A stretch of 63,390 nucleotides of DNA, filler included, from Collodictyon triciliatum (GCA_043381765.1; 12 parts of 12 records of this genome joined end to end with filler, not necessarily neighbours in it); one strand, 5' to 3'; positions 53,485-58,835 are shown, numbered from the whole stretch's first letter. The notes: generated by a model not told the origin, from the letters alone. A program made the numbers and translations.

Positions 53485-54085
53485 NNNNNNNNNNNNNNNN
53501 NNNNNNNNNNNNNNNNNNNNNNNNNNNNTTAATTAATTAANNNNNNNNNNNNNNNNNNNNNNNNNNNNNNNNNNNNNNNNNNNNATGGCTTTTTGTCAAC
53601 GGGGAAGTCCAGGTATACGAATGCCGGGGCTGAGGCGAATCGGTTGGAGCAGATTGCAGCGCAATTGTGTGGTGCTAGTCGCAAGGATTTCATTGTTCAC
53701 TAGAGAGGGGGCTGTCTTGTCATTTCTGCCTATGGCCTAGCTGAGCGCCGCGCTCGAAGGGGCTTTCTGTATTGTTCGTTGCCGTAGCGAGAGCGGCGGC
53801 CATTGAAGCGGATGTGACAGACGGCTCTGAATTGGGCGTAGTGGGTATTGTTTCGCTCGAGGCGGCGGTTGAAGGGGTGGTTCCTCGTTTCTTGGTGGTG
53901 AGAAAGGTATCTGTTACCCGCCCGAAGGTTCCCGTTGACTGGATGGTAAAGACGTAAGTTATAATGCCAGGCAGACGGGCTAGGGATGACTGTGGCAGTT
54001 GACATCTGGCAAAAGCTCTCCCCCGCACCTGTTAAGGAGTATGAACGCTTTCAGCCGTCTTTCGCCACTGGGGATACACTTAAGT

Positions 54086-54152
54086 TGTCAGTCTAATTGC
54101 CCAATACGGCATCTTAGGCGGAAACTGTCAGTCTAATAATGAGTTATGCAGA
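54086..54152 (+). mobile_element. Upstream integron-type recombination site (attI-like or degenerate attC): GTCTAAT-AATGA-GTTATGC with TGTCAGTCTAAT direct repeat
   Basis: Core GTTATGCAGA (54143-54152) is the exact reverse complement of TCTGCATAAC at the downstream attC. L-box, 5-bp spacer and R-box geometry; direct repeats at 54086-54097 and 54126-54137. Confidence 0.65.
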
Positions 54153-54205
54153 CCAAACCTCTCTAAACTCTTTTGGTAGGAAATCACATCACTTTTTTGC
54201 ATTTT

Positions 54206-54227
54206 GTCAACAATTCGTCAACAATTC
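54206..54227 (+). promoter_or_regulatory. 11-bp tandem direct repeat GTCAACAATTC x2 upstream of the cassette operon
   Basis: Exact repeat with one-helical-turn period ending 20 bp before ATG 54248; regulatory role is inference only. Confidence 0.3.
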
Positions 54228-54247
54228 GTTTTTTGGTAATTTGACCT

Positions 54248-54763
54248 ATGCCTACTTATAGCGTTAGAGACATTTTAGAAATTATCAAAACTCTAACCCC
54301 CGAACAAAAGCTGGAACTTCAACGCGAACTCCCCAGTGTTCTAGCTGCCGTTGGCAAGGAGTCGACAACTCCTGCTAAGAGTCAAAGTATGAGTGGGGTA
54401 ACTATTACAGGTAGTAGTGACATTGATCTGAGTCAAATTCAGGCAGAGGAGGGAAGTAGTATCAATCAGAGTAAGACTCAGGCAACGCTAGAGAATACTG
54501 ATTTAAAGGAAGCGCTGAGTGTGCTGGAAAAATTAAAGCAGACAGTTGCAACTAATAGCGACCTTAATCCTCTGATAAAGGAAGTGGCAGAGGAGAAAAT
54601 TCAGGCTATCCAGAAAGAAGTACAAAAGCCACAGCCAGATAAAAGCCTGGTGGATAAAGCAATTGTAGCCTTGAAAAAGGGATTGGCAGGGGTGGAAGAA
54701 CTGGCAGAGCCAGTGATGAAAGTTGCCGGTTTGGTGGCTAAAGCCTGGATGGTAATCCCATGA
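54248..54763 (+). CDS. Small helical protein with internal amyloid-like motif; putative effector of the adjacent NLR-like receptor
   Basis: 171 aa: short N-terminal helical part, beta-prone QSMSGVTITGSSDIDLSQIQ, C-terminal helical bundle ending in a hydrophobic/amphipathic helix. Stop overlaps the next start (ATGA). Confidence 0.8.
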   Translation: MPTYSVRDILEIIKTLTPEQKLELQRELPSVLAAVGKESTTPAKSQSMSGVTITGSSDIDLSQIQAEEGSSINQSKTQATLENTDLKEALSVLEKLKQTVATNSDLNPLIKEVAEEKIQAIQKEVQKPQPDKSLVDKAIVALKKGLAGVEELAEPVMKVAGLVAKAWMVIP

Positions 54764-57700
54764 CACAGGAATTTTCTAAGAATTTAGGTGAGGGTGGACG
54801 CGAGCAGACAATCCATGATGTGTCGGTTGTTAGTAGCCAAAACGTTACATTTAACCAGACGCAAATCATCCAGATCTCAGTTGAAGAGGTAAAGACTCGG
54901 AAATTCATTATCACATCCCCCTATAAAGGGCTGAAAAAGTTTGAGTCAGAAGATAAAGATCGCTTTTTTGGGCGGGATCAGTTTCTCACAGGATTGGTGA
55001 ATGAACTGGAGCAGAGCAATTTTGTATTACTTCTAGGTGCATCAGGAAGTGGTAAATCTTCGGTAATTAGAGCAGGTTTGATTCCTTGGCTGGCAGAGAG
55101 GCAAGGGAGTCATTTTATGAATCTGGTCTTTACTCCAGATCAAGATCCGTTTGAATCGCTGTATGCCAGTTTGTTAGGGAAGTATAAACAGTCAGAAGCA
55201 CAGATTGCTCGTATTGCTAAGGAAGATACGCTAACTCAGTTAGTGCGATCGCTCAAGCAGAAGGATGCCTACTGGTTCATTCTCATCGACCAGTTTGAGG
55301 AGTTGTTTACTACCACTGAGTCAAGCAAACGAGATGTCTTCATCAAGAGTTTGGTGCAACTGGTAAAAACTCTCGACAAAGCTGGCGATCGCTCGGTCAA
55401 ACTTGTAGCAACGATGCGAGCAGATTTTTTGGATCGGCTCAGTCCCTATCCCGACTTAATCAAGATAACAGATAAGCATCGCCCCATGATTGCAGAAATG
55501 CAATTGGATGAATTGCGCTTGGCGATCGAACAACCTGCCGCCCATCATGGTGTAGTGTTTGAGACTGGATTAGTCAAGCAAATCATTGATGACGTGCAAG
55601 GACAGGCTGGATATTTACCCTTGTTGCAGTACACGCTAAATCTGTTGTGGGAAACGGAAGTTCAGAGCCGAAGTATTGAAGATCGGACGTTAAATATCAG
55701 CAACTATCGGAAATTGGGTGGGGTGCGGGGAGCACTCCAGCAGCACGTAGATCAAATCTACAAATCTTTGTCTGAATCGGAAAAATTAGCGGCTCAGAGG
55801 ATATTTTTAAAGTTAGTGGGCATTGGCCAAGATGAAGAATCTGGAACTGAGTGGAAACCTGTTCGGCGACGTGCCACTCGTTCAGAGTTTAGCGACCCAC
55901 TAGAGCAAACAGTCTTAACTCAGTTGGTCAATCAGAACTTATTAGTGAGTAATCGTGTGGCTAACTCCGAGGAAAGCACGATTGAGATCGCTCACGAAGC
56001 TTTGCTGACTTCCTGGTTAACATTGAATACTTGGATTAAGGAAAATCGTCAGGAGATCGCACTTCGTAACCGCTTGAACGATGATGTTGAACAATGGAAG
56101 AAAACAAATTCCCATGAAGATTTGTGGTCAGGTTCTCGACTGGAGCAGGCGTTAGAACTAAGACAGGATGAAACCTTTAATCAGGTTCTTGGCGGTTTGA
56201 GTCAGGAAGCCAATCAGTTTTTAGATGCAAGTCAAGGTGAGCGAGATCGCATTCAAAAAGAGAAAGTACGTCTCCAGCGTCGAGCTATTAAATGGCTTTC
56301 TAGCGGTTTGGCAGTAGCTGTCCTATTTGCTTTAGCTGCTGCTTACCAGTGGCAAAAAGCTGAACGTCAAACCCGAATGGCTCAACTGCAAACAAAAATT
56401 GTGTTAGCCAATAATTTACTGCCCAAAGAACCAACTAGAGCAGCAATCCTATCAATTTATGCTACAGGTCAAAGTGTAGCAGAGTATAAAAATGTCTTGA
56501 GTTCGGCAGAAAATAGTTTGCTAGCAAGTGTTCAGGGAGCAAGAGAAGAAAATGTATTTAAAGGGCATCAAGGGGCGGTTTTATCCGTTGCAATGAGTCC
56601 TGATGGGCAAAAGATTGCCAGTGCTGGAGCAGATGGAACAGTCAGACTTTGGAATCTGACGGATCGATCTCAACAAGTTATTGAAAATTTTCAAAACGTT
56701 CAAGCTACAAGCGTTGTCTTCAATCGCAGTGGACATATTTTAGCCAGTGCTGATGCTAATGGACAGATAGCAATTCGTAAATTACAAGAGAATTCCCTTG
56801 TTTGTAATTATCCGAGTGAACTAAAAGGACGCAGAGATGATTATGAAGTTTTTCTTCACCGGACGGTGTTAGCGTTTAGCCCTAAAAATGAAAATTTATT
56901 TATTGGTGCAGGTCCCGATAATAGAGTTCGTATCTTTAATGTGGAAAATTGCGATGAACAAGATTTGGGTATTTTAGAACAGTATGCTCCTGGCGAAGGC
57001 TATCCTTTTGCAACATCTATTGCATTTAGCCCTGATGGCGATTTATTAGCTATAGGTGACTCTGACTCTGGTTTAAGACTGTTAAAGCTTTCTGATAAAA
57101 CCCAACAAATTCTGTTAAAAGGAAGGCTAGGTTATGCTGAATCAATTCAATCGTTAGCATTTCCTGATTTGACCACGATTATCATTGGTATTGGTGTCCA
57201 TGAAATGGCAGAGTATGCGTCTATTAAAACTATCTGGACATTAAGCAAAGATCAGAATCAATGGGAGAAGGGGATTACATTTGGTGTGCATCAAAATGTA
57301 GCTCGTACAGTCGTAATGAATCCTGGTACAAGCCAAATTGTTAGTGGTGGCGATGAAAGTGGTGACGGTCATAACTTAATTCTGCTTGATCGCTGGACTC
57401 AGAACATGCTGTTTGCGTTCATTGGGCATAAAGATAGCGTAAATGCGATTTCTCTCAGTAAGGATGGTAAAAATCTTGTTAGTGGAGGTAGCGATGGTAC
57501 AGTCAGACTGTGGAGCATGGAGATCACTCCTAAAGGTGATGGAATAAAAGAAGTCGTAGAGAAAACCCCAAATTCCTCGTCGTCAGACTATACCAGTATT
57601 TTCTATAGTTCTGATGGCGATAGTATGGCAATAGTCAAACACGATCCGAAGGGCTTTAGCGAAACAGAAACCAATTTTAATTCCTTCAAAAATCTTATCC

Positions 57701-58239
57701 AAATTAAGGCAAAAAAAGGAAACGTTCTGTTAGGAGAGTTTAAGGTAATAGGAAAGGTTAAATTTGTTGCCCTTAGTAGTAATAATAATAAAGTGGTGAT
57801 TATTAAGCCAGATGAAATCGAAATTCGAGACTTTCAAGGTAAATTCCCGACTACATTTATCAATGATGGAAAAATCGATATTGGTGCCATTAGTCCTGAT
57901 GGAAGAACAATCGCAATGGCAAAAAAACAAGAGCCTGGTGTTGTAGCTAGACCACCTCTACAGCTTTTCGACATTAATGGGCAACCTATTGGTAAATTTG
58001 AGCAGGAAGGTAGCGTGGACTTTTTAGCATTTAGTCGCAATAGTCAATATATTTTGACCTCAAAATATGGAGAGATTCATTTCTTTCCCGCTAATTGGCA
58101 AGCCTTTCTGAAAATTGCTTGCAATAGACTCCGCTACCATCCCGTTTTGAACGATCCTGAAACTTTAGCTCAGGATGAAATTGCTAGAGGTGCTAGGGAA
58201 ACTTGTCAGAAGTATAGTCCCGACTGGCAGACGAGGTGA
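54760..58239 (+). CDS. nSTAND1-type STAND NTPase + TM segment + WD40 repeats (bacterial NLR-like), N-terminal amyloid-like motif
   Basis: SPYKGL..F…D…FFGR, Walker A GASGSGKSS, Walker B ILIDQFEELF, MRADFL, LPLLQYTL, EIAHEALL..W; hydrophobic WLSSGLAVAVLFALAAAY; GH…VRLW WD repeats; C-terminal ACNRLRYHP. Confidence 0.93.
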   Translation: MTQEFSKNLGEGGREQTIHDVSVVSSQNVTFNQTQIIQISVEEVKTRKFIITSPYKGLKKFESEDKDRFFGRDQFLTGLVNELEQSNFVLLLGASGSGKSSVIRAGLIPWLAERQGSHFMNLVFTPDQDPFESLYASLLGKYKQSEAQIARIAKEDTLTQLVRSLKQKDAYWFILIDQFEELFTTTESSKRDVFIKSLVQLVKTLDKAGDRSVKLVATMRADFLDRLSPYPDLIKITDKHRPMIAEMQLDELRLAIEQPAAHHGVVFETGLVKQIIDDVQGQAGYLPLLQYTLNLLWETEVQSRSIEDRTLNISNYRKLGGVRGALQQHVDQIYKSLSESEKLAAQRIFLKLVGIGQDEESGTEWKPVRRRATRSEFSDPLEQTVLTQLVNQNLLVSNRVANSEESTIEIAHEALLTSWLTLNTWIKENRQEIALRNRLNDDVEQWKKTNSHEDLWSGSRLEQALELRQDETFNQVLGGLSQEANQFLDASQGERDRIQKEKVRLQRRAIKWLSSGLAVAVLFALAAAYQWQKAERQTRMAQLQTKIVLANNLLPKEPTRAAILSIYATGQSVAEYKNVLSSAENSLLASVQGAREENVFKGHQGAVLSVAMSPDGQKIASAGADGTVRLWNLTDRSQQVIENFQNVQATSVVFNRSGHILASADANGQIAIRKLQENSLVCNYPSELKGRRDDYEVFLHRTVLAFSPKNENLFIGAGPDNRVRIFNVENCDEQDLGILEQYAPGEGYPFATSIAFSPDGDLLAIGDSDSGLRLLKLSDKTQQILLKGRLGYAESIQSLAFPDLTTIIIGIGVHEMAEYASIKTIWTLSKDQNQWEKGITFGVHQNVARTVVMNPGTSQIVSGGDESGDGHNLILLDRWTQNMLFAFIGHKDSVNAISLSKDGKNLVSGGSDGTVRLWSMEITPKGDGIKEVVEKTPNSSSSDYTSIFYSSDGDSMAIVKHDPKGFSETETNFNSFKNLIQIKAKKGNVLLGEFKVIGKVKFVALSSNNNKVVIIKPDEIEIRDFQGKFPTTFINDGKIDIGAISPDGRTIAMAKKQEPGVVARPPLQLFDINGQPIGKFEQEGSVDFLAFSRNSQYILTSKYGEIHFFPANWQAFLKIACNRLRYHPVLNDPETLAQDEIARGARETCQKYSPDWQTR

Positions 58240-58313
58240 GTAAGGGGAGATGAAAGAAGTCGCTTATGATTTCTTGGAGTAGTTGTCAGAAGTCAGTCAG
58301 TTAGGCGATCTCT

Positions 58314-58402
58314 GCATAACAAGCCGCTTGCACACCGACCGCATCAAGGTCGTCTGCTGGAACCGAAAGGCTACTAGCGGCGGGTGAAGCGGATCGTTAG
58401 CA
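58314..58402 (+). mobile_element. attC: Integron attC site (89 bp)
   Basis: R'' GCATAAC, 5-bp spacer, L'' GCTTGCAC (one extra base), stem CCGACCGC/GCGGCGG, L' GTGAAGC, 5-bp spacer, R' GTTAGCA; begins ~75 bp after the stop of the last cassette gene. Confidence 0.88.
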
Positions 58403-58746
58403 ATCCAAGCGCTGGCGCACCTTCAGGGTGAAAGTAACTGGCTCTAGTCGATGAGTATATATGCTTAGTGAAAATCTAGTTATTTAGAAGAAGTAAACAC
58501 CTTTCGCTGCGCCGGATCCCCCGTCCCATCCACAGCAGTCGTTGTCCCAACCTGCACCTGAGCGAAAGATGCACCTTGGGTAAGCACCAAAGCAAGCGCG
58601 AACACCAACACCCGGACATACTGCACCCAATATTTGCAGATCACCGATGGCCATTAACCATTACAAAGTCATATCCCCACCCATTAACGGTGTTATCGGC
58701 CCCTATCACCTTTTCCTTGAGCATTAGTTAGGACGCATCTCTCAAG

Positions 58747-58835
58747 CCCTTTGATTCGCCTTTAGGATTTCCCGCCAGTTAGGACAGATCCCCCCCTACA
58801 TGTAGGGGGGGAAATCCTAAAGGCGAATCAAAGGG
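58747..58835. repeat. Perfect 27-bp inverted repeat with inner palindrome at contig end
   Basis: CCCTTTGATTCGCCTTTAGGATTTCCC … GGGAAATCCTAAAGGCGAATCAAAGGG; inner CCCCCCTACATGTAGGGGGG. Confidence 0.85.

What the first reader, a model, noticed from the sequence alone, without database searches (positions are those of the whole stretch)
54248..58239. Candidate amyloid-signalling NLR/effector pair with a new-looking shared motif, carried on an integron cassette
Seen: the STAND-WD40 protein has no folded N-terminal effector, only ~50 aa containing QTIHDVSVVSSQNVTFNQTQ (nt 54805-54864). The translationally coupled upstream protein contains QSMSGVTITGSSDIDLSQIQ (nt 54383-54442). The two align without gaps as Q[ST][MI]xxV[ST][IV]xxSx[DN][IV]x[LF][SN]QxQ, a beta-prone, Q/N/S/T-rich pattern with regularly spaced aliphatic residues. 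Established: fungal HET-S/NWD2, RHIM and bacterial BASS/Bell systems use two adjacent genes in which an NLR N-terminal amyloid motif templates the same motif on a separate effector. Inference: this is such a system with an atypical layout, because the motif is internal and precedes a helical bundle ending in an amphipathic, possibly membrane-active helix rather than following a Bell/HeLo domain. A mobile-cassette location would fit an anti-phage or cell-death role.
Basis: partly seen in the sequence, partly recalled or inferred. Interest (0 to 1): 0.9.

Follow-up and report, generated by a model that had tools for sequence, protein, structure and literature searches.

The report
NLR and partner share co-evolving motif
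A cyanobacterial immune-receptor-like ATPase and the small protein encoded just upstream carry the same short, disordered, beta-prone tag, which changes in step in both proteins across many cyanobacteria; this is the signature of amyloid-type signalling, here in a layout not described before, but fibril formation is untested.

Summary
The gene pair is real. A 171-aa ORF (54248-54763) overlaps by ATGA a 1159-aa nSTAND1-WD40 protein (54760-58239). Both 20-aa motifs sit at the stated coordinates.

In this window the similarity is weak: 5 of 20 residues identical, z 2.4, and 16 of 500 shuffles reach it. Across relatives it is strong. In 37 pairs the median z is 6.2. The motifs co-vary by clade: 0 of 20000 permutations reach the observed cognate score. 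A profile built from the small-protein side finds STAND N-termini in 13 loci at E<=0.001, with no unrelated ORF below E 0.2, but it misses the window's own.

AlphaFold2 puts both motifs in low-confidence segments beside confident domains. The small protein ends in a generic four-helix bundle. In relatives its short N-terminal hairpin is replaced by CHAT, TRADD-like or HetE-N domains.

Best reading: an NLR-partner cell-death or defence module coupled through a homotypic beta motif, most likely by amyloid-like templating. It is a new variant of the BASS/Bell kind. Amyloid formation and any match to BASS1-11 could not be tested.

The integron context is not supported. The window is a string of about 5.3-kb metagenome contigs, and no integrase was found.

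An earlier scan note (e1-5203763, other DNA) reports a related Bell/nSTAND1 pairing.

The parts
53585..58835 (.). The metagenome contig piece that holds the finding. The rest of the window is other, unrelated pieces.
   Evidence: N44 + TTAATTAATTAA + N44 joints occur every ~5.36 kb. Run labels say lake-water metagenome. The first 33-37 nt is a repeat with 17 listed matches in a related genome. The last 89 nt is an inverted repeat (I1).
54248..54763 (+). Small partner protein, 171 aa, in no Pfam or NCBIfam family.
   Evidence: ORF. No family reaches its cut-off. 54 near homologues and 98 representatives. Every hit that carries an organism name is cyanobacterial.
54248..54352 (+). N-terminal helical hairpin (residues 1-35). 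This is the variable position; relatives carry CHAT, TRADD-like N, HetE-N or an HTH antidote domain here.
   Evidence: AlphaFold2 helices 6-14 and 18-35. Fused forms.
54377..54487 (+). Partner-side beta-prone motif region (residues 44-80).
   Evidence: pLDDT<50 over residues 36-81. S+G+Q+N make up 51% of residues, and K, P, L, E are depleted. The profile of this region hits STAND N-termini.
54470..54751 (+). C-terminal four-helix bundle (residues 75-168). This is the constant part of the family and ends in the conserved LAEPV.KVA.LVAKAW helix.
   Evidence: Helices 75-102, 108-125, 132-145 and 150-168, pLDDT about 77-84. Only generic bundle matches were found. Conservation.
54760..54763 (+). 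ATGA overlap of the partner's stop codon with the STAND start codon.
   Evidence: The same 4-nt overlap occurs in 25 of 36 related loci.
54760..58239 (+). nSTAND1-WD40 NLR-like protein, 1159 aa.
54805..54864 (+). Receptor-side motif (residues 16-35), inside the low-confidence N-terminal tail.
   Evidence: Residues 1-37 have pLDDT<50, while the NTPase from about residue 41 is near 90. No Pfam match. Conserved in 28 aligned N-termini.
54919..56118 (+). nSTAND1 NTPase domain (residues 54-453), Walker A GASGSGKSS.
   Evidence: PF20703, E 2.8e-114, 383 bits against a cut-off of 27.1. Invariant G93-S101 in 26 sequences.
56284..56352 (+). Conserved hydrophobic segment (residues ~509-531) after a basic cluster RLQRR. 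Probably a transmembrane helix.
   Evidence: The maximum 19-residue hydropathy window lies at residues 494-559 in 31 of 32 related STAND proteins, each preceded by R/K-rich residues. Inference only; no topology predictor was run.
56500..58236 (+). WD40 beta-propeller region, the putative sensor.
   Evidence: WD40 and beta-propeller Pfam matches between residues 581 and 1014. Direct repeats D1-D3.
58315..58405 (.). Imperfect palindrome downstream of the pair. It looks attC-like by eye but is unverified.
   Evidence: Stem found in the fold, but z is -0.7 against shuffles. The right arm is 97% identical over 35 nt directly after the homologous stop codon in a Microcystis genome.
53796..53813 (.). 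Upstream copy of the GCGGC..TGAAGCGGAT arm.
   Evidence: Repeat family D7, 83% to 58377-58394. Alignment.

Best explanation
This is a two-gene NLR-type cell-death or defence module of cyanobacteria.

The receptor is an nSTAND1 ATPase. It probably sits in the membrane through one helix, with a WD40 sensor C-terminal to that helix. Its only N-terminal feature is a disordered tail of about 40 aa that carries a Q/N/S/T-rich, beta-prone motif.

The partner is translated from the overlapping upstream ORF. It carries a matching motif between a short N-terminal hairpin and a C-terminal four-helix bundle.

Proposed mechanism (inferred): ligand-driven oligomerisation of the ATPase clusters the N-terminal motifs. 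These adopt a cross-beta or beta-arch fold that templates the matching motif of the partner, as in HET-S/NWD2 and Bell/BASS. Folding of the motif, which abuts helix 1 of the bundle, then activates the partner. In this locus the output would be the bundle itself. In relatives it would be the CHAT, TRADD-like or HetE-N domain fused in front of the motif.

Shown here: the pairing, the shared motif, its co-evolution, its disorder and its composition.
Inferred: amyloid templating, the role of the bundle, the membrane topology and the defence function.
For: - Gene pairing. 36 of 42 related loci have a STAND gene directly downstream of the small gene. 26 of these align over the NTPase at 47-97% identity. 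25 of 36 overlap by 4 nt.
- Motif similarity. It is well above shuffles in most pairs: median z 6.2 over 37 pairs, and 0 of 500 shuffles reach the score in 22 pairs.
- Co-variation. With 12 clades defined on the bundle sequence alone, the sum of cognate scores is 618 against 410 +/- 35 for permuted partners. 0 of 20000 permutations reach it.
- Two pairs in one Nodosilinea MAG. They score 37 and 59 with their own partners but 24 and 26 crosswise.
- Cross-detection. A profile of the partner-side motif (59 sequences) finds STAND N-termini in 13 loci at E<=0.001 and in 18 at E<=0.05, among 999 ORFs. The first unrelated ORF is at E 0.2.
- No recent gene conversion. The two motif-coding DNA stretches are only 41-58% identical. 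In 8 of 11 pairs at most half of the identical residues use the same codon, so the likeness is kept at protein level.
- Disorder. Both motifs lie in pLDDT<50 segments next to confident domains.
- Composition. S, G, Q and N make up 51% of the partner-side motif; on the receptor side Q, I, V, S, T and N dominate. K, P and L are depleted on both. This matches the bias reported for BASS motifs (passages of 10.1101/2020.01.06.895854).
- Fused relatives. They carry CHAT (9 of 10 long forms scanned), TRADD-like N and HetE-N in front of the same motif plus bundle. These domains are linked to BASS-type signalling and bacterial death systems in the papers read.
Against: - In the window itself the similarity is marginal. 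The z is 2.4, 16 of 500 shuffles reach the score, and the cognate ranks 20th of 37.
- The motif profile does not find the window's own STAND protein at E<=10. Its three closest relatives also fail, or score E 4.2.
- No amyloid predictor or experiment was available.
- Co-variation is equally expected for a finite, non-amyloid beta-sheet interface.
- The motif is not terminal on the partner, unlike the BASS, HRAM, sigma and PP motifs as described in the papers read.
- The bundle is a generic fold with no specific match to a known executioner domain.
- The bundle was never found on a STAND protein among the 98 representatives (longest 461 aa) or the 3 longer hits. Classical NLR effector domains usually also occur in such 'all-in-one' forms.
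- No phenotype, phage or toxicity data exist.
Confidence: 0.55

Rival explanations
1. Non-amyloid adaptor coupling. The two motifs form a finite beta-sheet, by strand augmentation or a small oligomeric ring. This tethers the partner to the receptor's N-terminus, in the manner of the effector-associated domains (EADs) of Kaur et al. 2020, with no self-propagating fold.
For: - Adjacent-gene copies being closest to each other is the stated hallmark of EAD coupling (passages of PMC7159879). It is seen here.
- The module sits in front of variable effector-type domains, as EADs do.
- The internal position of the motif and the attached folded bundle fit a docking module better than a terminal prion-forming tail.
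Against: - EADs are described as small folded domains, alpha or alpha+beta. Here the shared part is about 20-35 residues and low-confidence in both models.
- No EAD family of Pfam matches.
- The bundle is not shared by the receptor.
- The Q/N/G/S-rich, K/P/L-poor composition is that reported for amyloid signalling motifs.
Confidence: 0.27
2. The small protein is a guard or antitoxin-like inhibitor. It binds the receptor's N-terminal motif and keeps it silent. The receptor's own tail, or another factor, is the output.
For: - The N-terminal hairpin gives a weak, sub-threshold hit to an antitoxin model (VapB15, E 0.16).
- One relative (P0089) carries an addiction-module antidote domain in its place (PF21716, E 6.8e-12).
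- An upstream, overlapping small gene is the usual place of an antitoxin (general knowledge).
Against: - Most fused relatives carry death or protease domains (CHAT, TRADD-like N, HetE-N) at that position, not inhibitors.
- The receptor has no other recognisable effector.
- The VapB15 hit is far below its cut-off (12 against 80 bits).
Confidence: 0.1
3. There is no functional link. Two low-complexity Q/N/S-rich linkers look alike by composition.
For: - The window's own pair is only marginally above shuffles.
- The motif profile also hits a Q/N/G-rich beta-repeat protein (E 0.0046) in one of five genomes.
Against: - Shuffles keep composition and are beaten strongly in most pairs.
- Clade-specific matching words occur on both sides, and 0 of 20000 permutations reach the observed cognate score.
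- The register is conserved relative to the NTPase start.
Confidence: 0.04

Closest known systems
Bell/BASS-NLR gene pairs of filamentous bacteria (Dyrka et al. 2020, 10.1101/2020.01.06.895854; outline, sections 7 and 9, and passages read)
   Same: - Collinear, overlapping effector-then-NLR genes.
- A motif of about 20-25 aa shared by the upstream protein and the NLR N-terminus.
- The same compositional bias.
- Cyanobacterial hosts.
- CHAT listed among alternative partner domains.
   Different: - The receptor is nSTAND1, not NACHT or NB-ARC.
- The partner has no Bell domain.
- The motif is internal and followed by a four-helix bundle.
- Their screen took only Bell C-termini and NACHT/NB-ARC neighbours, so this family lay outside its design.
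- A match to the BASS1-10 profiles could not be tested.
Bab/Agp (BASS11) abortive-infection system of E. coli (Ibarlosa et al. 2024, 10.1101/2024.11.07.622273; outline and section 4 read)
   Same: - An adjacent gene pair sharing an amyloid motif.
- A small helical partner.
- The motif family is also found with CHAT, TIR, EAD7, NACHT and NB-ARC.
- It provides experimental proof that such pairs can act in phage defence.
   Different: - The sensor there is TPR-GreA/B-C-PIN, not a STAND ATPase.
- The motif is C-terminal on Bab.
- Bab's helical domain is N-terminal with a hydrophobic first helix.
- No experiment exists for the present pair.
HET-S/NWD2 of Podospora (as summarised in the introduction of Dyrka et al. 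2020)
   Same: An NLR N-terminal motif templates the same motif on a helical-bundle executioner encoded next door.
   Different: - It is fungal, with a HeLo domain N-terminal to the motif.
- The motif occurs as two pseudorepeats at the C-terminus.
- No homology to it was detected here.
RHIM of RIPK1 (recalled, not from a call)
   Same: An amyloid-forming motif at an internal position, followed by a C-terminal helical bundle (the death domain) and preceded by an effector-type domain.
   Different: It is an animal kinase with no NLR partner gene. This is a resemblance of layout only and was not tested here.
EAD-coupled conflict systems (Kaur et al. 2020, PMC7159879; passages read)
   Same: - One copy sits on the core NTPase and one on a variable effector in the adjacent gene.
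- Neighbouring copies are the most alike.
- The systems are enriched in multicellular bacteria.
   Different: EADs are folded domains with Pfam models. Here the shared element is a short disordered motif, and no EAD model matches.

Membership tests
nSTAND1 STAND NTPases (PF20703) | Match to the family model over its full length, above the curated cut-off | tested here: met
   E 2.8e-114, 383.1 bits against a cut-off of 27.1. Residues 54-453 match model positions 1-378 of 379.
BASS/Bell-NLR amyloid signalling pairs | Adjacent, collinear effector and NLR genes with a short distance or an overlap | tested here: met
   4-nt overlap in the window and in 25 of 36 related loci.
BASS/Bell-NLR amyloid signalling pairs | The same short motif on the partner and at the N-terminus of the NLR, detectable by one profile | tested here: met
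   For the family: 13 loci at E<=0.001 and 18 at E<=0.05, plus co-variation. For the window's own pair only weakly: z 2.4, and not found by the profile.
BASS/Bell-NLR amyloid signalling pairs | Motif at the C-terminal end of the effector protein | tested here: not met
   The motif is residues about 44-80 of 171 and is followed by a 95-residue four-helix bundle.
BASS/Bell-NLR amyloid signalling pairs | Bell (HeLo-like) domain on the effector | tested here: not met
   No HetE-N or HeLo-type Pfam match in the window's protein at E<=10, or in 59 relatives at E<=0.05 among the 25 families shown. One fused relative (P0098) has HetE-N in front of the motif. That 'Bell' equals Pfam HetE-N is my assumption.
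BASS/Bell-NLR amyloid signalling pairs | Composition enriched in Q, N, G, V, I and depleted in K, P, L | tested here: met
   against the description.
BASS/Bell-NLR amyloid signalling pairs | Match to one of the BASS1-11 profiles | not testable with these tools
   The logos are figures and the profiles are supplements, which are closed. No sequence of them was available.
BASS/Bell-NLR amyloid signalling pairs | Fibril formation, prion behaviour, cross-seeding | not testable with these tools
   Needs peptides or GFP fusions. ArchCandy and ASMscan are not installed.
Effector-associated domains (EAD1-11) | A small folded domain present on both the core NTPase and the effector, matching a Pfam EAD model | tested here: not met
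   No EAD model hit. The shared element is low-confidence in both models.
Integron gene cassette | attC recombination site at the 3' end of the cassette | tested here: inconclusive
   There is an imperfect palindrome at 58315-58405. Its end words only partly fit the RYYYAAC/GTTRRRY consensus (consensus recalled). The fold is no better than shuffles, z -0.7. No attC covariance model was available, and Rfam found nothing.
Integron gene cassette | Integron integrase, or an array of attC sites, nearby | tested here: not met
   None in the 5.25-kb piece. In 3 related genomes no match reaches the TIGR02249 cut-off: the best is 116 bits against 265, a 159-aa fragment about 340 kb from the pair. Related pairs sit among unrelated housekeeping-type genes.
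HeLo/Bell/MLKL-type four-helix executioner domains | A fold match standing above generic bundles | tested here: inconclusive
   Foldseek best E is 0.26. The best VIA-align Z is 11.9, to a de novo designed bundle, within the range the tool calls common for helical bundles.

The most novel reading that the evidence does not exclude
This is a cyanobacteria-wide, undescribed class of prion-like signalling. A membrane-anchored nSTAND1 receptor with its sensor domain beyond the membrane helix passes its signal through a private, co-evolving amyloid motif to a new four-helix-bundle module. That module serves as a universal socket for plug-in effectors (CHAT, TRADD-like N, HetE-N) or acts as the executioner itself. 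The internal motif followed by a bundle would mirror the RIPK1 layout in bacteria.
Probability: 0.35. Interest if true: 0.8.

Novelty: new variant of a known kind. Interest (0 to 1): 0.62.

Why it matters
Amyloid signalling between an NLR and its effector is established in fungi and animals and, since 2020-2024, in bacteria. The known bacterial cases were found by a screen restricted to Bell domains and NACHT/NB-ARC receptors.

This family shows the same logic with three differences:
- a different receptor clade (nSTAND1);
- a partner in no known family;
- a motif placed between domains.

The co-variation is clear enough to define specificity classes. It gives a compact set for testing how motif matching encodes partner choice, and what a helical bundle placed after an amyloid motif does. 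The testable set is a 171-aa protein, two peptides of about 25 aa, and natural CHAT-fused relatives.

Tried and rejected
- Complex prediction of the small protein with the receptor's first 80 residues gave 'no answer': score 0.00, controls not run, alignments not used. It counts neither way.
- Foldseek against PDB found no match at E<=0.001. VIA-align wide found only generic four-helix bundles; no Bell, HeLo or MLKL entry was among the rows shown. That does not exclude them.
- Pfam and NCBIfam scans of the small protein, its motif region and the receptor tail found nothing above cut-off.
- The ESM Atlas gave its own cluster plus leads to DUF4404 (0.90) and TCAD2 (0.87). I did not follow these up, and hmmscan did not list either family.
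- Rfam on the whole piece found 0 matches at E<=1. The promoter and terminator scan of 53585-54400 found 0 sites.
- No whole genome is held for the window, so I used related genomes through locus handles.
- The 'longer' homologue search gave only 3 CHAT fusions and no STAND fusion. The tool itself calls this weak evidence.
- Integron checks:
  - No integrase reaches the cut-off.
  - The palindrome has two matches in one related genome, one being the pair's own 3' flank.
  - No repeat array lies near the integrase-like fragment.
- Looking for BASS consensus sequences in the text of three papers found none.
- Parts of the laid stretch without RNA-contig cover (53900-54127) are not interpreted.

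Full report
**What the window is.**
The 63-kb window is not one locus. It consists of pieces of about 5.3 kb joined by 44 N, TTAATTAATTAA and 44 N. The finding lies in one piece, 53585-58835. No whole genome is held for the window. The runs that hold this DNA are labelled lake-water metagenomes. All context claims are therefore limited to 5.25 kb.

**The observation.**
- The small ORF 54248-54763 (171 aa) ends in ...CCATGA. The ATG of that word starts the 1159-aa ORF 54760-58239.
- The large protein is nSTAND1 (PF20703, residues 54-453, E 2.8e-114) followed by WD40 repeats.
- Its first 62 residues match nothing in Pfam at E<=10.
They are residues 46-65 of the small protein and 16-35 of the large one.
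- Aligned without gaps, they share 5 of 20 residues (read).
- Taken alone this is weak. The best local alignment between the partner's motif region and the receptor's tail scores 35, against 24.3 +/- 4.5 for 500 shuffles (z 2.4). 16 of 500 shuffles reach it.

**Relatives.**
- The small protein has 54 close homologues and 98 representatives at 50% clustering.
- No source gives it any name other than 'hypothetical protein', and it has no Pfam family.
- A scan of one genome per species found 42 loci, all in records titled as cyanobacteria. They include Microcystis, Nostoc, Calothrix, Pseudanabaena, Nodosilinea, Leptolyngbya, Planktothrix and others.
- In 36 of the 42 loci, the next ORF on the same strand begins with a Q/N/S-rich tail followed by the SPY[KR]GL...FFGRD start of the NTPase.
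- Of the other six loci, three have a truncated small gene followed by an unrelated ORF (L029, L040, L042). Three have no long downstream ORF or end at the contig edge (L033, L035, L041).
- 26 of the downstream proteins align with the window's first 460 residues at 47-97% identity.
- 25 of 36 loci have the same 4-nt overlap.

**The motif is shared and co-evolves.**
- Over the 37 pairs (36 loci plus the window) the median z against shuffles is 6.2, with values up to about 12. In 22 pairs none of 500 shuffles reaches the observed score.
- The matching words differ from clade to clade but agree within a pair. For example, L027 has ...MTNAVSGTTFGDGNNAFNLQP on the partner and ...MSNAVSNVTFGDGVNTFNFSP on the receptor. 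L026 has VGGNFQVGGSGVTVDMSQ against IGGNFQVDGSGNRVDFSQ.
- I grouped the loci into 12 clades using only the last 85 residues of the small protein. The sum of cognate clade scores is 618, against 410 +/- 35 when partners are permuted. 0 of 20000 permutations reach it. The diagonal is the row maximum in 5 clades and the column maximum in 8.
- If the two motifs had evolved independently since one ancient duplication, cognate and non-cognate pairs should be equally alike. They are not.
- Two pairs from one Nodosilinea MAG score 37 and 59 with their own partners and 24 and 26 crosswise. Two pairs from one Nostoc genome are not distinct: 48 and 65 against 50 and 60.
- A profile HMM built from the partner side alone (59 sequences, residues 44-80) was searched against all 999 ORFs of the loci.
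  - It finds the STAND N-termini of 13 loci at E<=0.001 and of 18 at E<=0.05.
  - The first unrelated ORF appears at E 0.2.
  - It does not find the window's own receptor at E<=10. Among the three closest loci only L002 appears, at E 4.2.
- The window clade therefore has the least similar pair of the family. I report this as a result against the reading for this particular locus.
- The likeness is held at protein level. The two motif-coding DNA stretches are 41-58% identical, and in 8 of 11 pairs at most half of the identical residues share a codon, for example 3 of 13 in L028. Recent gene conversion does not explain it.
- In five whole cyanobacterial genomes a motif model built from 31 partner-side segments gave 8 matches: the six small proteins, one cognate receptor tail, and one hit inside a long Q/N/G-rich beta-repeat ORF.
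- At this sensitivity the motif is private to this module. Its one false hit is a beta-rich repeat protein.

**Structure.**
- AlphaFold2 with 59 sequences gives the small protein two short helices (6-14, 18-35), a low-confidence stretch 36-81 (pLDDT<50), and four helices 75-168 at pLDDT about 77-84.
- AlphaFold2 of receptor residues 1-460 (26 sequences) gives pLDDT<50 for residues 1-37 and about 90 for the NTPase.
- Neither motif is part of an ordinary folded domain.
- Composition: on the partner side S, G, Q and N make up 51% of motif residues; on the receptor side Q, I, V, S, T and N dominate. K, P and L are depleted on both. Dyrka et al. describe this bias for BASS motifs.
- The bundle matches only generic four-helix bundles. 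The Foldseek best E is 0.26. The best VIA-align Z is 11.9, to a designed bundle, within the range the tool calls common for helical bundles.

**Architecture of the family.**
- Longer relatives keep the motif and the bundle at the C-terminus and replace the 35-residue hairpin.
  - A CHAT protease domain replaces it in 9 of 10 long forms scanned, and in 3 of 3 'longer' hits.
  - One of these CHAT forms also carries a TRADD-like N domain (P0106).
  - P0099 has TRADD-like N alone, P0098 has HetE-N, and P0089 has an addiction-module antidote domain.
- The variable, effector-type position is therefore N-terminal to the motif. Motif plus bundle is the constant module.
- The bundle never appears on a STAND protein among the 98 representatives (longest 461 aa).
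The bundle may be an executioner, and in the 171-aa form nothing else is a candidate. It may equally be a constant adaptor or safety domain.

**Mechanism proposed.**
1. The sensor domain detects a signal.
2. The nSTAND1 ATPase oligomerises.
3. The N-terminal tails cluster and adopt a beta-arch or cross-beta fold.
4. That fold templates the partner's motif.
5. Folding next to helix 1 of the bundle activates the partner.

The pairing and the co-evolution are shown here. Every step of the mechanism is inferred by analogy with HET-S/NWD2, Bell/BASS and Bab/Agp. A finite beta-sheet adaptor complex in the manner of EADs fits the same data and is the main rival.

**Comparison with what is known.**
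[quoted passage not shown] A non-Bell partner of an nSTAND1 receptor could not have been found by it.
- Four full-text searches returned the BASS papers but nothing on this family. I saw listings and abstracts, plus the passages cited.
- I cannot say whether the motif falls within BASS1-11. The logos are figures, the profiles are in supplements that are closed, and no consensus is given in the text I searched.
I did not test that note. It suggests that nSTAND1 receptors use several such partner types.

**The integron claim.**
- Downstream of the pair lies an imperfect palindrome (58315-58405), and one of its arms recurs upstream.
- Its right arm follows the homologous stop codon in a Microcystis genome at 97% identity over 35 nt.
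- RNA-library contigs of a relative end upstream of the pair in a similar word (table 7).
- Integrons do occur in cyanobacteria (passage of PMC4889954).
- Against the claim:
  - The palindrome folds no better than shuffles, z -0.7.
  - Its end words fit the attC consensus only in part (consensus recalled).
  - The piece holds no integrase.
  - Three related genomes have no match over the integron-integrase cut-off. The best is a 159-aa fragment about 340 kb from the pair.
  - Related pairs in Nostocales sit among unrelated genes.
- I leave the cassette idea as untested rather than refuted.

**Expression.**
- Contigs from RNA libraries of three studies cover the pair at about 95% identity.
- Two 4.3-kb contigs of one study run from 54143 across the 54760 junction and past 55600.
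- The tool warns that DNA can be present in such libraries and that a contig across two genes does not show one transcript. This is only a weak hint of co-transcription.

**Verdict.**
- The pair and the motif are real, and the motif's co-evolution is strongly supported at family level.
- The window's own copy is the weakest example.
- The amyloid mechanism is plausible but untested, and the integron context is unsupported.
- I class it as a new variant of a known kind of system.

Noticed in passing
window 56284-56352 (receptor residues ~509-531): A conserved ~20-residue hydrophobic segment, preceded by a basic cluster (RLQRR...), lies between the NTPase and the WD40 region. It is found at the same place in 31 of 32 related STAND proteins. 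It suggests a membrane-anchored receptor whose WD40 domain would lie outside the cytoplasm. No topology predictor was run.
   Followed up: partly
L006-L013 (Nostocales loci), downstream ORFs of 726-736 aa: In these relatives the STAND protein keeps the tail, the NTPase and the hydrophobic segment. It has a different, shorter C-terminal region in place of WD40. The sensor part is exchangeable.
   Followed up: no
window 53585-53621 and 58747-58835: The contig starts with a 33-37-nt word that gives 17 listed matches in a related Microcystis genome. There the word begins a multi-copy ORF that starts MAFCQRGSP. The contig ends in a 30-nt inverted repeat (I1). The assembly probably broke at repeats on both sides.
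   Followed up: partly
window 54206-54227: An 11-nt word (GTCAACAATTC) is tandemly duplicated about 20 nt upstream of the small gene's ATG. RNA-library contigs of relatives lack one copy (table 4). It may be an operator-like or slippage site in the promoter region.
   Followed up: no
window 53620-54120: About 500 nt of G+C-richer non-coding sequence lies upstream of the pair. It has no Rfam match and no likeness to the three closest genomes beyond the repeat at its start. Only the last ~130 nt before the ATG is conserved, at 77-82%, in L001-L003.
   Followed up: partly
L057 5339-5818 (G001:C1 ~3960339-3960818, minus strand): A 159-aa ORF in the Microcystis genome matches the first third of the integron-integrase model (116 bits, positions 3-105 of 315). 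It looks truncated. A 43-nt stretch 80% like the left arm of the window's palindrome lies about 3.5 kb away.
   Followed up: partly
L064 (G005:C1 ~3358249): A very long ORF (open frame 1762 aa) made of Q/N/G/V-rich beta-type repeats gives the only off-family hit of the motif model, at E 0.0046.
   Followed up: no
window, all other pieces: The neighbouring pieces are A+T-rich with long T, A or TAT runs and low coding density. They seem unrelated to the cyanobacterial piece.
   Followed up: no
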